From Betaproteobacteria bacterium (GTDB lineage Bacteria; Pseudomonadota; Gammaproteobacteria; Burkholderiales; Burkholderiaceae): DNA of 41,376 bases. Below, one piece after another: positions 27,226 to 38,230 of the stretch (positions are counted from its first letter, which is position 1; each line of letters opens with the position of its first letter). Made by a program: the position numbers and the translations under genes. The stretch lies in contig JABMMT010000177.1 of the NCBI GenBank assembly GCA_013205155.1, positions 1-41,376 of the forward strand. Reading direction: 5' to 3'. Below the pieces are notes generated by a model. It was not told the DNA's origin. It saw only the letters and a program-made list of their open reading frames with translations, and did not search any database.

Positions 27226-28038
27226 TCAGATCAGTCGCTCTCGTACCTTGGCTGTCACCCACTCACTCACCGCTACCGTGGCAAGAATAACGATAAGCAG
27301 CATGGTTACTTTGGGCCAAGCGAGCGTATTGAGTGCAGCCTCCAGTTTGACACCAATTCCGCCTGCACCCACCAAGCCCAACACAGTTGACTCCCGGATG
27401 TTGATGTCCCAGCGAAAGACACTGATGCCCGCCAGCGTGGGTGAAATTTGTGGCAACACCCCCCAGGCCATGGTTTGTGCTTGGCTTGCGCCCGTGGCCT
27501 CGATGGCCTCTACTTGCGCTGCATCTATCTCTTCAATGGCTTCGTAGAGCAACTTTCCGATGAAGCCGATAGATCGCAAGGCAATTGCAAAGACGCCAGC
27601 GAGTACCCCAGGGCCTAGAATGGCCACTAGCAGCAAAGCCCAGATCAGCGAATTAATAGAGCGTGAGCCGACGATCAGCAGTAAAGCAATAGGACGCACA
27701 AATCGGGTACTTGGCGTCGTGTTACGCGCCGCCAAAAAAGCCACTGGCACCGCCATGATCAGGCCGATTAACGTTCCAAGAGTGGCAATATTGATGGTTT
27801 CCCAGAGTGGCCACCAGAGTTCGTTGACGAAGCTCCATGCAGGCGGCATCATGCGCGAACCGATATCCTTCATTTGGGCAGGTGCGTCTGTGACGAAAGC
27901 CCAAATCGTATCTTTTGTCATCACTTGGAAGGTCCAAGACACAAACGCAAGCGTAAGCACCCAGGCCGCAAACACAATCAGTTCATTGCGGGGGGTGCGT
28001 TTCTGCCATACCGGCATGGAAGAAGTATTCAAAGTCAC
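27226..28038 (-). CDS. phnE: Phosphonate-type ABC transporter permease
   Basis: EAA loop EAIEATGA; RWDINIRESTVLGLVGAGGIG. Confidence 0.9.
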   Translation of the reverse strand: MTLNTSSMPVWQKRTPRNELIVFAAWVLTLAFVSWTFQVMTKDTIWAFVTDAPAQMKDIGSRMMPPAWSFVNELWWPLWETINIATLGTLIGLIMAVPVAFLAARNTTPSTRFVRPIALLLIVGSRSINSLIWALLLVAILGPGVLAGVFAIALRSIGFIGKLLYEAIEEIDAAQVEAIEATGASQAQTMAWGVLPQISPTLAGISVFRWDINIRESTVLGLVGAGGIGVKLEAALNTLAWPKVTMLLIVILATVAVSEWVTAKVRERLI

Positions 28039-28853
28039 TGAATGCGCTTTCTGAGCCAGCCCGAGCTGTACTCAGCTACCATTACAATCGCAATAATGAC
28101 CAGAATAATGGCGGCAGCTGAATCAAATTCGTAGCGGTCCATGGCTGTATTAAGCGTTGCACCTATTCCGCCAGCACCCACGATACCAATCACAGCTGAT
28201 TCTCGAAAGTTAATATCGAGCCGGTAGAGTGATAGACCCACCAGCCGTGGCATAACCTGCGATAACACCGCAAAGTCGAGTATCTGCAGATACCCAGCAC
28301 CAGTTGCTCGAAGGGCCTCAAGCTGTGAGGCTTCTATCTCTTCAATATCCTCGGCCATCAGCTTGGCCATGAAGCCTATGGTGGCAAAAGTCAAGGTCAA
28401 AAAACCAGCGAATGGTCCAAACCCGAACATGGCAACCAGAAAGATAGCGATGATGATTTCATTAAGCGTTCGGGACAAGGCCACAAAACTGCGACAGATG
28501 AGATAGACCCAGGTCGGCGCAAGGTTTCGGGCGGCGCCCACTGCAACAGGGATCGACAACACAACGCCAAGTGCAGTAGATGTGACCGTCATTGTCAGAC
28601 TCTCCTGAAAGCCAATAACAATGTCGCCCCATCGGCTGGTGAAATTCGGATGTAAAAAGCCAAGGATGAAAGCCCATCCGCGCTCAAGCCCTTGGATGGC
28701 TCGCGCCAAGTTCACCTCCAGCGAACCAATACCTAAAATTAGGTAGAGGATTGCGCCGATATACAAAGCCCAGCGCGCGTAAGGACTGGAAATGAATTTC
28801 GGGCGCCGCCACTGTCGCTGGAGTTTCGGTACTTCTACTACTGCATCGGTCAT
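28035..28853 (-). CDS. phnE: Phosphonate-type ABC transporter permease
   Basis: EALRATGA; [21 protein letters not shown]. Confidence 0.9.
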
Positions 28854-29686
28854 AAAGAAGCAGCCAGCGTTAAATCATTGTTTCCTTGATTACTGTTACT
28901 CAAATCATCTCTGGCTGATGCTTGCATACTTTGAGTAATTGCGGTCCAGTCCTCATCGCCATATATATTGGTCAATATGGTCTTGTCGATATTGGCGGCC
29001 GGACCGTCATAAACCACAATGCCGGCACGCAGACCTACAATCCTTGGCAGGAACTCGGTTGCCAGCACAACATCGTGTATGTTCACGATCGCAGCAAGCC
29101 CGCGCTCCTGACATAGCTCCAAAATCAGACGCATGATCTGGCGCGAGGTTTTCGGGTCAAGGCTGGCTGTAGGTTCGTCCACTAGCAGCAGCTTTGGGCT
29201 TTGCATCAATGCCCTCGCAATGCCGACGCGCTGGCGCTGCCCACCTGAAAGCGCATCTGCGCGCTTATTTTCCATGCCACCCAAACCCACACGTTCAAGG
29301 AGTAAGTAGGCCTGCGCAATGTCATCACCCTTAAATCGCCGAAACCAACTGGCCCAGAATCCGGTATAGCCTAGGCGGCCTGACAGCAAATTTTCCATCA
29401 CGGTCAAACGTTCGATGAGAGCGTACTCTTGAAAAATCATGCCGATTTGGCGGCGCGCATTGCGCAGACCACTTGAACCTAGTACGCTTAAGTCTTGCCC
29501 ATCCAGCTTAATCACCCCTCCGCTCGGCTGAACCAAACGATTGACGCAACGAATGAGAGTTGACTTACCAGCCCCTGATGGACCGATTAGCCCTATCATC
29601 TCACCTGCACCCACGCTCAGAGTCACCCCGTTAAGTGCAAGGTCACCTGTTGGGTATCGTTTTTCCAGCTGGCGCAACTCAAGCAT
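28850..29686 (-). CDS. phnC: Phosphonate-type ABC transporter ATP-binding protein
   Basis: [34 protein letters not shown]. Confidence 0.92.
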
Positions 29687-29698
29687 AGTGATATTTCT

Positions 29699-30649
29699 TT
29701 ATTTGCAGGCGTAACTCACGTTCATAGCCTGATCGATGTCGCGTACTACTTGCCAGTATTGCTTGTAATTGATAGGCATGAACTTTTCTTGGGGCGGTTC
29801 ACTCTTACTAAACTCTGCAGCCAATGCCGTTCCTTCCCACTTGAAGTTGAAGAAAGCCTGCTTGATCTTTTCTGCCAGTTCTGGCTTGAGGTTGTACACA
29901 TAACCATAACCAGTTGTCGGGAAGGTTTGGGATGTGTAAATGACCTTAGTCTGGTCTGCTTTGACCGCACCACGCCCGATCATTCTCTCCTTTACGGAGT
30001 TGGCAATGGCCGCTGCTGGATAGTCCTTATTGGCAACACCCAGAATCGAGTTGTCATGCTTGCCACTAAACACAGGTGTGTAATCTTTACCGCTTTCCAT
30101 TTTGTACTTATCGCGCAGCAATGCGGCCGGAGCTTTATATCCAGAGTTGGAGGTTTCCGAGGTGAATGCTAAGCGCTTACCTTTAATATCCTCAATCTTC
30201 TCAATACCGCTCCCGGGATAAGTAATGATTTCCATCTCGTAACCGAATTTGTTATCTTTAGAGGCCATCATGGCGAAGGGCACAAAACCAGCGCAATTGA
30301 CAGCGATCGGGTTCGAGCCTGTATTAAAGCCAGCGACGTGAAGGCGACCTGCACGCATGGCTTCTAACTGGGCAGCATTGCTCTGCACCGGGAAAAACTG
30401 GACTTTTTTGCCGGTTGTCTTGGCCAAGTGCTCAATAAAGCCATCCCAGATCTTGGCGTAAACGGCAGGGTCTTCGACGGGAGTGTAAGCAAATACGAGT
30501 GTAGCTGGGTCTATGAACTCAGATGCATTAGATGGTGGATCTGCCACCAAATCACCGTTGGTATCTTTAAAACGAGGATCCATTGCCTGGATGGTAGGAG
30601 CCAATGTTGTTAGGGCGGCGACGAATATGGCGGACAAAGCGAATCGCAT
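29699..30649 (-). CDS. phnD: Phosphate/phosphite/phosphonate ABC substrate-binding protein
   Basis: Start corrected to ATG at 30649 (RBS GGAG, signal peptide MRFALSAIF..IQA); TSNSG, GKHDNS. Confidence 0.87.
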   Translation of the reverse strand: MRFALSAIFVAALTTLAPTIQAMDPRFKDTNGDLVADPPSNASEFIDPATLVFAYTPVEDPAVYAKIWDGFIEHLAKTTGKKVQFFPVQSNAAQLEAMRAGRLHVAGFNTGSNPIAVNCAGFVPFAMMASKDNKFGYEMEIITYPGSGIEKIEDIKGKRLAFTSETSNSGYKAPAALLRDKYKMESGKDYTPVFSGKHDNSILGVANKDYPAAAIANSVKERMIGRGAVKADQTKVIYTSQTFPTTGYGYVYNLKPELAEKIKQAFFNFKWEGTALAAEFSKSEPPQEKFMPINYKQYWQVVRDIDQAMNVSYACK

Positions 30650-30693
30650 TAGGATCTCCAGATATGACAAAAAGTAGATTCTCACAACTTTGG

Positions 30694-30722
30694 ATGACAG
30701 TTCCGTGACATTCAAGTGACTT
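30694..30722 (-). promoter_or_regulatory. Pho box, three 11-bp PhoB repeats
   Basis: Minus strand AAGTCAC-ttga-ATGTCAC-ggaa-CTGTCAT at exact 11-bp spacing upstream of phnD. Confidence 0.82.
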
Positions 30723-30796: not shown

Positions 30797-31447
30797 ATGA
30801 GTACTTGGTTCAATTCAGTCGACATCTATTGCGAGCGCTTAGATGCGAGTTTTTGGGCTGAGCCCTTTAACGCCATTAGTAATCTGTCGTTCATCATTGC
30901 AGGATTTTTTCTGTGGCGACTAAGCTCTTCCCTTTCAAATCTGATGGCCATTCTGATGATCCTCATTGGCCTGGGTAGTTTTAGCTTTCATACTTTTGCT
31001 AATCGCCTTACCGGCCTACTTGATGTCTTAGCAATTGCTCTGTATTTACTGATCTTTGCATTTTTAATCCCCAAGCAATGGTCAAGAAGCTCGATTTTTA
31101 TTCAGCTAGGGTCAGCTCTACTATTCATCATCAGCATTGTTTGCGCTCAATTACTTATCAGTCACTTAAAGCCAGATTTACCATGGTTACCATCCGGGAT
31201 CTACCTAGGCGCTTGGTTAGCGCTGATGGTTTACGCTTTGATGACCCAATATTCAAATACGTCAGCAGCTCGTTTCTTATGGCTGGCGGCCATCGTTTTT
31301 TCATTCTCCCTACTGAGTCGTCAACTTGATATGCCCTTATGTGACTTCATTGGTGGTTCACATTGGTTATGGCACTTACTTAATGGGCTAACCTTGTATT
31401 TGACCAGTTATGGTCTTTGCCTAAAGCAGTGCCCTAAATTACTGTAG
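30797..31447 (+). CDS. Ceramidase-like (CREST superfamily) membrane hydrolase
   Basis: YCER, WAEPFNAISN, GSFSFH, HWLWH metal-ligand motifs; multiple transmembrane segments. Confidence 0.82.
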   Translation: MSTWFNSVDIYCERLDASFWAEPFNAISNLSFIIAGFFLWRLSSSLSNLMAILMILIGLGSFSFHTFANRLTGLLDVLAIALYLLIFAFLIPKQWSRSSIFIQLGSALLFIISIVCAQLLISHLKPDLPWLPSGIYLGAWLALMVYALMTQYSNTSAARFLWLAAIVFSFSLLSRQLDMPLCDFIGGSHWLWHLLNGLTLYLTSYGLCLKQCPKLL

Positions 31448-36957: not shown

Positions 36958-38070
36958 CTAATTAGTGTGGTCAGGATAGACCCCCTTAAAAGTATCCCTA
37001 GTGAGATCAATACAACCTCCATTTTCATACACCCCCTGAGGATCTCGATATTTCATCATCATATTAATACAGCTTTGCAATTTCACATGGGAGTCTAGAG
37101 TTTGCTCTACTAATTCCCTCACTAAATCCTCATTGATTTCTAAGCTACCTAATTTATCCTCTCTAACACCATGTCGCCAGTGGTAAATTTCAAGACACTT
37201 AGTCTCCAAGGTATATGGTTTAGATTTATCCCAAAGGTTTGTAAATAGACCTCCACCCATATAAATTACCCACGAGCCTTCATATCCTTGTACATTGGAT
37301 GAGAAATCATCAGGGTTTTTGAACCAGACACGATCGCCGGGCACATAACAGCGCATTGGAAATGGAGTCGCCGATGATCCGATTTCTAATAAAAATGCAT
37401 TCAAGAAATCATCAGCGACTAAGGCTTTTTTCCTCGACTGTAGTTCTATTTCTTTTAATTTTGCTGGATTGCTTAGGCTCAATTCAATTGCCAAGCTATG
37501 TAACATTAAGTACTCAGTAGCTCTTTGACAAGAAAAAGAAAAATGCTCCCCTGAAATATCAGGACATAGCGCCCGCTCAATTCCATCAACTAAAGAAGCA
37601 CCCTCTTTCAAAATAAATCCCCCATCTACAACATGAATCCAATATGCCTCTGGCCTAGAGATGCCGTTTGTATCAAAGTTCAATTCAGTCCTTCTGGCGA
37701 GGCCTGATAAATTTATCCTCATTCTGATATTTGCTTCCAACTCATTCAAGCTAGAAAAGTCAAAAATGAGTGGACTTACTGCCATGCTAAGAACGATTTC
37801 AAGGGCCATATCTGGTGCTGACGACTCAGACAACAACCCAAGACTTGCTGCTAAACAGGAAGTGTCTGCATGTTGGCAAAGTTTGTGTAAGGTATCATTT
37901 GCATAAACTCTGATGTACTGCACTCCATCTTTATGCTCTTGGCTGATTTCAACATATGGGGAAACGCCAACCTTATCGCACCATGCTCTGATTCCATCAA
38001 GAAACAAATCATTATTAATAAGTGCGGTGACAATCTGCAATCCACCATGACTTTTACATAAGTGGTTCAT
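36958..38070 (-). CDS. Tgl-like (protein-glutamine gamma-glutamyltransferase fold) cysteine enzyme
   Basis: Collinear motifs FDFSSLNEL..RMRINL, YW..GGFILK, FSFSCQRA, PGDRVWFKNP and EGSWVIYMG resemble Bacillus Tgl as recalled; RBS GGAG. Confidence 0.68.
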   Translation of the reverse strand: MNHLCKSHGGLQIVTALINNDLFLDGIRAWCDKVGVSPYVEISQEHKDGVQYIRVYANDTLHKLCQHADTSCLAASLGLLSESSAPDMALEIVLSMAVSPLIFDFSSLNELEANIRMRINLSGLARRTELNFDTNGISRPEAYWIHVVDGGFILKEGASLVDGIERALCPDISGEHFSFSCQRATEYLMLHSLAIELSLSNPAKLKEIELQSRKKALVADDFLNAFLLEIGSSATPFPMRCYVPGDRVWFKNPDDFSSNVQGYEGSWVIYMGGGLFTNLWDKSKPYTLETKCLEIYHWRHGVREDKLGSLEINEDLVRELVEQTLDSHVKLQSCINMMMKYRDPQGVYENGGCIDLTRDTFKGVYPDHTN

Positions 38071-38230
38071 AAACGTCTCCGTTCAATTATTTGGGTACGT
38101 AAGCAATTCTGCTACACTCAATATCGCAAGTATCATTATTCCTGCGAATTTGTAAGAATGCTAATTAAAGTTATTGCTTTACTGAGTAAAACACTGATTG
38201 ACAGCAATCAGGCTGTCTAAACCCACCCTT

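What the first reader, a model, noticed from the sequence alone, without database searches (positions are those of the whole stretch)
36958..38070. Spore-coat transglutaminase (Tgl)-like enzyme with altered active site in a non-sporulating betaproteobacterium
Seen: a 370-aa orphan with ordered blocks SPLIFDFSSLNELEANIRMRINL, YWIHVVDGGFILK, FSFSC(181)QRA, PGDRVWFKNP and YEGSWVIYMG. Established, recalled from memory: B. subtilis Tgl has TPVQFDYHSIAELMFELKLRMNI, YWRVSPEGALELK, YAFECATA, LGDCLYFKNP and WRGENVILLG..FAHG in the same order, with Cys116 catalytic and Glu115, Glu187 and His200 nearby. Here the Cys is kept, both Glu positions read Ser, the His position reads Leu, and the N- and C-termini are extended. 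No signal peptide is visible. Inference: a cytoplasmic Tgl-fold subfamily with a non-spore role, such as cross-linking, polyamination, deamidation or peptidase activity, carried in an accessory island.
Basis: partly seen in the sequence, partly recalled or inferred. Interest (0 to 1): 0.85.

Follow-up and report, generated by a model that had tools for sequence, protein, structure and literature searches.

The report
Tgl-fold enzyme tied to cyanophycin synthetases
This gene encodes a relative of the Bacillus spore-coat cross-linking enzyme with a rebuilt active site, and it was found almost only in bacteria (and one giant virus) that carry a poorly understood pair of cyanophycin-synthetase genes, so it likely cuts or remodels the amino-acid polymer those genes are thought to make.

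Summary
The 370-aa ORF is Pfam TGL (E 1e-26), and its model matches only the two Tgl structures (Z 11-12). Cys181 is invariant in 128 of 128 homologs; the Tgl Glu115, Glu187 and His200 positions read Ser, Ser and Leu/Phe. Glu264 is the likeliest replacement base (inferred).

It is not an orphan and shows no sign of a recent island. It belongs to a conserved Burkholderiales family tied to the cphA/cphA' + ABC + DUF1854 system, which is proposed to make a cyanophycin-like polymer and usually lacks a known cyanophycinase. The gene lies beside cyanophycin genes in 31 of 179 loci, at six places on the tree. All 18 of 18 carriers among 300 order genomes, and 23 of 23 among 110 genomes of one family, have DUF1854 (background 29% and 58%). 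One giant-virus genome carries this gene plus both synthetases.

Best reading: an accessory cysteine amidase acting on that polymer, more likely cleaving it (0.42) than cross-linking it or exchanging side chains (0.27). Only about 21% of system-bearing genomes have it, so it is not the universal missing cyanophycinase. No activity was tested.

The parts
36958..38070 (-). Gene for the 370-aa Tgl-fold (PF20085) cysteine enzyme of the cphA/cphA'-linked subfamily
38077..38080 (-). GGAG Shine-Dalgarno-like site 6 nt before the ATG
37756..38049 (-). N-terminal alpha/beta domain (about residues 8-105), largely absent from Tgl; no clear structural match (best Z 3.9); holds invariant Glu91
36991..37755 (-). 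Tgl / NlpC-P60-type catalytic core (about residues 106-360), with an inferred helical insertion at about residues 282-340
37528..37530 (-). Cys181, aligned with Tgl Cys116; predicted nucleophile; invariant in 128 of 128
37273..37281 (-). Glu264-Gly265-Ser266: Ser266 at the Tgl Glu187 position; Glu264 (Tgl Arg185 position) invariant in both subfamilies and the candidate catalytic partner (inferred)

Best explanation
The protein is a Tgl-fold enzyme with an invariant cysteine, predicted to be cytoplasmic, and it likely acts as an accessory cysteine amidase that cleaves the cyanophycin-like polymer thought to be made by the CphA/CphA' synthetase pair. Shown: the fold, the conserved Cys181, the loss of Tgl's two glutamates, and the genomic coupling to cphA/cphA'-ABC-DUF1854. 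Inferred: Cys181 attacks an amide of the polymer, most likely the side-chain isopeptide by analogy with Tgl's attack on side-chain carboxamides. It would form a thioester with help from Glu264 in place of Glu187/Glu115, and water would release the product, trimming or recycling polymer in the cytoplasm. My odds that the enzyme works on this polymer by any chemistry are about 0.7.
For: Neighbourhood: 31 of 179 loci have a cyanophycin gene in the flank (30 DUF1854, 1 cyanophycinase; families named). In 28 of the 30, DUF1854 lies directly upstream on the same strand within about 60 bases. These loci fall at six separate places on a FastTree tree. Co-occurrence: among 300 order genomes, 18 of 18 full-length carriers are among the 87 with NF052234; conditional p=0.004 within six families. 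Family f11: 23 of 23 carriers among 64 positives, 0 of 46 negatives; two patchy genera give p=0.012. Family f20: 1 of 101 for each gene, in the same genome (that genome was the chosen centre). 49 of 50 genomes whose copy is not beside cphA still hold cphA. The own genome has cphA/cphA'/ABC/DUF1854 on contig C43 and no cyanophycinase found (84.6% complete). Giant-virus bin G301 carries this gene and both synthetase types, with no cyanophycinase or DUF1854 found. For hydrolysis: only 2.8% of 903 beta-proteobacterial CphA1 genomes have a recognisable cyanophycinase (PMC10206079 Table 2). Tgl residues needed for cross-linking are not kept (E115A and H200A are inactive in Tgl; PMC6490927). One copy is followed directly by a cyanophycinase gene (L055). 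The NlpC/P60 enzyme PgdS is a precedent for hydrolysis of a polyamide (PMC5880399).
Against: No activity data, and no model coordinates were available to measure the Cys181-Glu264 geometry. Only 18 of 87 system-bearing genomes have the full-length gene, and 61 of 87 have neither it nor a cyanophycinase over cut-off. There is no mutual exclusion with cyanophycinase: 2 of 18 against 8 of 69 (counted). 148 of 179 loci, including this window, have no cyanophycin gene in the flank (flanks 1.5-6 kb, many loci are close kin). Price et al. propose the polymer is exported and is not true cyanophycin (10.1101/072470), which weakens a storage-recycling role. Both solved relatives are transglutaminases. 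One of 50 genomes (G805, a 2.0-Mb bin) lacked cphA.
Confidence: 0.42

Rival explanations
1. The enzyme is a transamidase on the same polymer: the thioester is resolved by an amine, exchanging side chains (Lys, polyamines), cross-linking chains or attaching the polymer to a carrier.
For: Same genomic coupling. Closest solved relatives are transamidases. The aromatic tunnel positions are kept: F132, W249, Y/F263. It sits at the end of a synthesis/export operon. The polymer is proposed to be an envelope component. The viral CphA has a hydrophobic N-terminus, as do four low-GC homologs of unknown origin. A signal-peptide sister subfamily was seen only in DUF1854-positive genomes (6 of 6 genomes that hold only that form).
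Against: The window's form lacks an export signal, and cross-linking before export would be expected to hinder an ABC exporter (inference). His200 and both glutamates are lost. It is dispensable in about 79% of system-bearing genomes.
Confidence: 0.27
2. The protein serves the CphA system without acting on the polymer's amides: it modifies (deamidates or cross-links) a protein of the system, or binds the polymer as a non-catalytic factor.
For: Explains the co-occurrence. No canonical base is left at either Tgl position. The extra N-terminal domain could be a docking module.
Against: Cys181, Glu264 and the surrounding pocket are invariant in 128 of 128 and across the distant subfamily, 11 of 11, which fits catalysis. 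Active-site migration is common in papain-like folds (PMC10318531 section 6).
Confidence: 0.15
3. It is a general protein-glutamine transglutaminase or deamidase unrelated to cyanophycin, and the association reflects shared ancestry or habitat.
For: Passes Pfam TGL. Most loci have unrelated neighbours such as pepP, an ABC transporter or hisD. Kin are not independent.
Against: Operon-like adjacency in several clades, within-genus concordance, 0 carriers among 213 + 46 DUF1854-negative genomes (the samples share a few genomes), and joint presence with both synthetases in a giant virus.
Confidence: 0.12

Closest known systems
Tgl, spore-coat protein-glutamine gamma-glutamyltransferase of Bacillus subtilis (PDB 4P8I) and Geobacillus stearothermophilus (7C9J); Pfam PF20085
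   Same: Fold (Z 11.8, rmsd 3.8 A, 216 aligned; Z 11.2, rmsd 3.1 A, 179 aligned), motif order, catalytic Cys, Phe69 position, no His at the canonical base position
   Different: 16-17% identity; Glu115->Ser/Ala, Glu187->Ser, Asn188->Trp, Arg185->invariant Glu, His200->Leu/Phe (inferred); extra N-terminal domain and insertion; far below the NCBIfam Tgl cut-off; found in Burkholderiales, linked to cphA/cphA'
cphA/cphA' + ABC (NF052233) + DUF1854 (NF052234) amino-acid-polymer system of Betaproteobacteria (Price et al., 10.1101/072470)
   Same: The gene is found almost only in genomes with this system and often directly after DUF1854
   Different: Described as four cofit genes; no Tgl-like member appears in the passage read; this gene is in about 21% of system-bearing genomes
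Cyanophycinases CphB/CphE/CphI (peptidase S51) and the hydrolytic N-domain site of CphA1
   Same: Proposed role in polymer breakdown
   Different: Unrelated fold; CphB is a serine-type exopeptidase (recalled) and the N-domain site is metal-dependent (PMC9262961 passages); activity here untested
PgdS (YwtD), NlpC/P60 poly-gamma-glutamate hydrolase of Bacillus
   Same: Papain-like NlpC/P60 cysteine enzyme acting on a non-ribosomal amino-acid polymer; encoded next to the synthesis genes (position recalled)
   Different: PgdS has a Cys-His-Gln triad and three NlpC/P60 repeats and works outside the cell; only weak fold similarity to NlpC/P60 domains here (Z about 4)

Membership tests
Pfam PF20085 TGL (fold family) | Score above gathering threshold | tested here: met
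   93.9 bits against 23.7
Pfam PF20085 TGL (fold family) | Tgl-type NlpC/P60 core in a predicted structure | tested here: met
   Only Tgl chains reach Z>=5 among 48,161 and 998 chains; Foldseek E 1e-5
Tgl spore-coat transglutaminase (NF002869 equivalog) | Score above NCBIfam cut-off | tested here: not met
   37 bits against 307
Tgl spore-coat transglutaminase (NF002869 equivalog) | Catalytic Cys116 | tested here: met
   C181, 128 of 128
Tgl spore-coat transglutaminase (NF002869 equivalog) | Glu187 or Glu115 as dyad partner | tested here: not met
   S266 in 128 of 128; position 180 Ser in 123 and Ala in 5
Tgl spore-coat transglutaminase (NF002869 equivalog) | His200 at the tunnel entrance | tested here: inconclusive
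   Positions 278-280 read N, F/L, W with no His, but the printed alignments stop short of His200
Tgl spore-coat transglutaminase (NF002869 equivalog) | Gln-Lys cross-linking or amine incorporation activity | not testable with these tools
   needs an assay
Accessory member of the cphA/cphA'-ABC-DUF1854 system | Restricted to genomes bearing the system | tested here: met
   18 of 18, 23 of 23, 49 of 50
Accessory member of the cphA/cphA'-ABC-DUF1854 system | Operon-like linkage in independent lineages | tested here: met
   28 of 30 same strand, close behind DUF1854; six places on the tree, deep nodes weakly supported
Core member of the cphA/cphA'-ABC-DUF1854 system | Present in most genomes bearing the system | tested here: not met
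   18 of 87 and 22 of 64 full-length
Cyanophycinase (TIGR02069 / peptidase S51) | Sequence match to the family | tested here: not met
   No such hit for P0001 in Pfam or NCBIfam at E<=1
Cyanophycinase (TIGR02069 / peptidase S51) | Hydrolyses cyanophycin | not testable with these tools
   needs an assay

The most novel reading that the evidence does not exclude
This is the first cysteine-type, Tgl-fold depolymerase or isopeptidase for cyanophycin-like polymers, using a relocated Cys181-Glu264 dyad. It fills part of the missing-cyanophycinase gap in Betaproteobacteria, and giant viruses have captured it together with both synthetases as a three-gene make-and-process module.
Probability: 0.38. 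Interest if true: 0.88.

Novelty: new variant of a known kind. Interest (0 to 1): 0.78.

Why it matters
Betaproteobacteria are the largest group with cyanophycin synthetase, yet only 2.8% have a known cyanophycinase, and what their synthetase pair makes is unsettled. This family gives a specific enzyme, a specific nucleophile and a specific candidate base with which to probe that polymer in abundant freshwater bacteria. Whichever chemistry it has, it would extend Tgl beyond spore coats, show a further active-site layout in the papain-like fold, and possibly supply a tool to cut or derivatise cyanophycin. The giant virus suggests the same module can run inside a eukaryotic cell.

Tried and rejected
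Recent island: rejected on composition; the closest named relative L001 keeps the same neighbours. Universal missing cyanophycinase: rejected, since it is in only 18 of 87 system-bearing genomes and shows no exclusion with cyanophycinase. Glu186, Glu229 or Asp355 as the base: less likely, as they vary in the distant subfamily while Glu264 does not. ACT-like sensor for the N-domain: only Z 3.0-3.4, inconclusive. Viral structure library: no match at E<=0.001. Plasmids: no match. More viral copies: pattern scans found only the one contig (none for P0156); near full-length cphA homologs were also only on that contig, among 20 loci. These scans have limited sensitivity. Origins of ten distant homologs could not be learned. 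ESM Atlas gave TGL clusters and one unnamed cluster. Functional links to the window's own neighbours (GST, glyoxalase, HtpX) were dropped as not conserved beyond close kin. No complex prediction and no read mapping were run. Literature: no paper in the held library links Tgl-like proteins with cyanophycin in the listings. 'DUF1854' gave 1 paper. Cyanophycin with giant virus or Nucleocytoviricota gave 0, and none of the 25 listed held 'cyanophycin synthetase'. Subscription papers and supplements were not seen.

Full report
Observation. The ORF at 36958-38070 (-) encodes 370 aa with all quoted blocks and Cys181. It passes Pfam TGL (93.9 against 23.7 bits) but not the NCBIfam Tgl equivalog (37 against 307). 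The AlphaFold2 model (pLDDT 80.2, pTM 0.82) matches 4P8I and 7C9J by Foldseek (E 1.2e-5 and 2.4e-5, the only two at E<=0.001). VIA-align gives Z 11.8 and 11.2, with the next best at 4.1, an NlpC/P60 domain. The extras over Tgl are an N-terminal alpha/beta domain with no clear match (pLDDT 90, best Z 3.9) and an inferred helical insertion at about 282-340. The closest named relative is a Polynucleobacter bin at 91% identity.

Active site. HMMER alignments map F132, S180 and C181 to Tgl Phe69, Glu115 and Cys116, and Y263-E264-G265-S266-W267 to Trp184-Arg185-Gly186-Glu187-Asn188 (through 7C9J, offset by one). In Tgl, Cys116 pairs with Glu187 or Glu115; E115A and H200A are inactive (PMC6490927, passages). 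Among 128 members (127 dereplicated loci plus the window), C181, E186, E229, R247, W249, E264, S266, W267, Y270, W280 and W298 are invariant and no His replaces His200. In an 11-sequence alignment that includes a distant signal-peptide subfamily, E91, R118, W144, C181, D246, E264, Y270 and W298 stay fixed while E186, E229 and D355 vary. Glu264 is therefore the best candidate partner; this is inference, as no coordinates could be measured. Such migrations are documented in papain-like folds (PMC10318531, section 6 and passages).

Distribution. There are 1682 homologs among 4450 candidates and 325 GTDB loci, of which the best 80 were seen. PF20085 was found in 4 of 401 phylum genomes, all in the own order. 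The gene is patchy: 21 of 121 genus genomes. Its GC3 is ordinary.

Link to the cyanophycin-synthetase pair. Neighbour clusters were named by NCBIfam (81 of 125 selected proteins sent) as cyanophycin synthetase, the cyanophycin-associated ABC transporter NF052233 and DUF1854 NF052234. In 179 loci, 31 have such a gene in the flank and 148 do not. In 28 of 30, DUF1854 is directly upstream on the same strand. These loci lie at six places on a FastTree tree whose deep nodes are weak (rooted on three distant proteins; loci at 88% identity or more, or under 270 aa, dropped). In one sample of 300 order genomes, 18 have the full-length gene and 6 only the secreted subfamily; all 24 are among the 87 with DUF1854. 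Fisher p is 5e-11 uncorrected for kinship and 0.004 conditional within six families. In family f11, 23 of 110 carry it (22 full-length), all among 64 positives, none among 46 negatives; two patchy genera give p=0.012. In family f20, 1 of 101 carries each gene, the same pre-selected genome. Of 50 genomes (50 of 63 such loci) whose copy is not next to cphA, 49 hold cphA. The own genome has the four-gene system on contig C43 and no cyanophycinase match.

Giant virus. One IMG/VR giant-virus contig encodes a 406-aa member (40% identity, same motifs) among PhoH, Rpb5, RING and glycosyltransferase genes. The same contig carries an 839-aa CphA-type protein with a hydrophobic N-terminus and a 651-aa CphA'-type protein with the N-domain; neither cyanophycinase nor DUF1854 was found. 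It was the only viral contig found with either gene at near full length. This is one genome, but it lies outside bacterial kinship. Earlier scan notes had seen giant-virus synthetase pairs and a giant-virus Tgl homolog with catalytic residues kept; none shown links the two. They are leads, not support.

What is known. Of 903 beta-proteobacterial CphA1 genomes, 2.8% have a recognisable cyanophycinase (PMC10206079, parts 1-2 of 5 read). PMC10687191 (passages) calls for work on cphB analogues. Price et al. (10.1101/072470, one passage) report cphA, cphA', the ABC transporter and DUF1854 as cofit, cite work that the pair does not form cyanophycin, and propose an exported polymer. PgdS is an NlpC/P60 hydrolase of poly-gamma-glutamate (PMC5880399, passages). 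PMC9262961 (two passages) describes the N-domain hydrolytic site. PMC7522526 (passages) added only that cyanophycin synthetase is expressed in Polynucleobacter. I found no paper linking Tgl-like proteins to this system; supplements and subscription papers were not seen and could bear on this.

Mechanism. Shown: fold, invariant Cys and one-way dependence on the CphA/CphA' system. Inferred: the substrate is the polymer (about 0.7), attack is on an amide through a Cys181 thioester, and Glu264 is the base. Hydrolysis (0.42) is preferred to transamidation (0.27) because this form lacks an export signal, Tgl's cross-linking determinants are gone, the hosts mostly lack a cyanophycinase and one copy abuts a cyanophycinase gene (L055; that gene has a twin-arginine-like start). 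Against: 61 of 87 system-bearing genomes have neither enzyme, cyanophycinase is not excluded in carriers (2 of 18 against 8 of 69), and an exported polymer or the hydrophobic N-termini of the viral synthetase and four low-GC homologs fit maturation as well.

Verdict. A real, undescribed variant of the Tgl family. It is not a member of the Tgl equivalog, and it is an accessory rather than core part of the cphA/cphA' system. Interest 0.78.

Noticed in passing
G301 (contig of L128): L209 1168-3687, L210 1315-3270: A giant-virus bin encodes both halves of the betaproteobacterial-type cyanophycin synthetase pair, the long one with a hydrophobic N-terminus; no cyanophycinase or DUF1854 was found.
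   Followed up: yes
L108-L115 (e.g. L110 934-2181, L113 1354-2637); proteins P0241, P0254, P0270: A second, signal-peptide-bearing TGL subfamily (370-440 aa) keeps the Cys and the Glu264 equivalent; in the order sample it occurred only in DUF1854-positive genomes, and some genus genomes hold both forms.
   Followed up: partly
proteins P0153, P0156, P0159, P0165: Low-GC-looking homologs with an N-terminal membrane-anchor-like stretch; possibly giant-virus proteins, origin not established.
   Followed up: partly
L055 6998-7948: Cyanophycinase gene with a twin-arginine-like N-terminus directly after the Tgl-like gene in a Limnohabitans bin.
   Followed up: partly
L025-L034, L039, L042, L043: In one clade the gene lies between pepP (same strand, upstream) and ubiH; pepP is in the flank of 17 of 179 loci.
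   Followed up: no
L010 1632-2474 and kin: A roughly 280-aa protein with no Pfam or NCBIfam hit is divergent from the gene in several Polynucleobacter loci (11 of 179).
   Followed up: no
genomes G793-G808, G815, G823: Many of these genomes hold a third cphA'-like copy away from the cphA/cphA' pair.
   Followed up: no
window 27226-30715: Phosphonate-type ABC transporter operon (identified by eye) with higher GC (0.49-0.52) than the rest of the window.
   Followed up: no
window 30797-31447: Ceramidase-family membrane protein (PF05875, above cut-off) next to a CHRD-domain gene.
   Followed up: no
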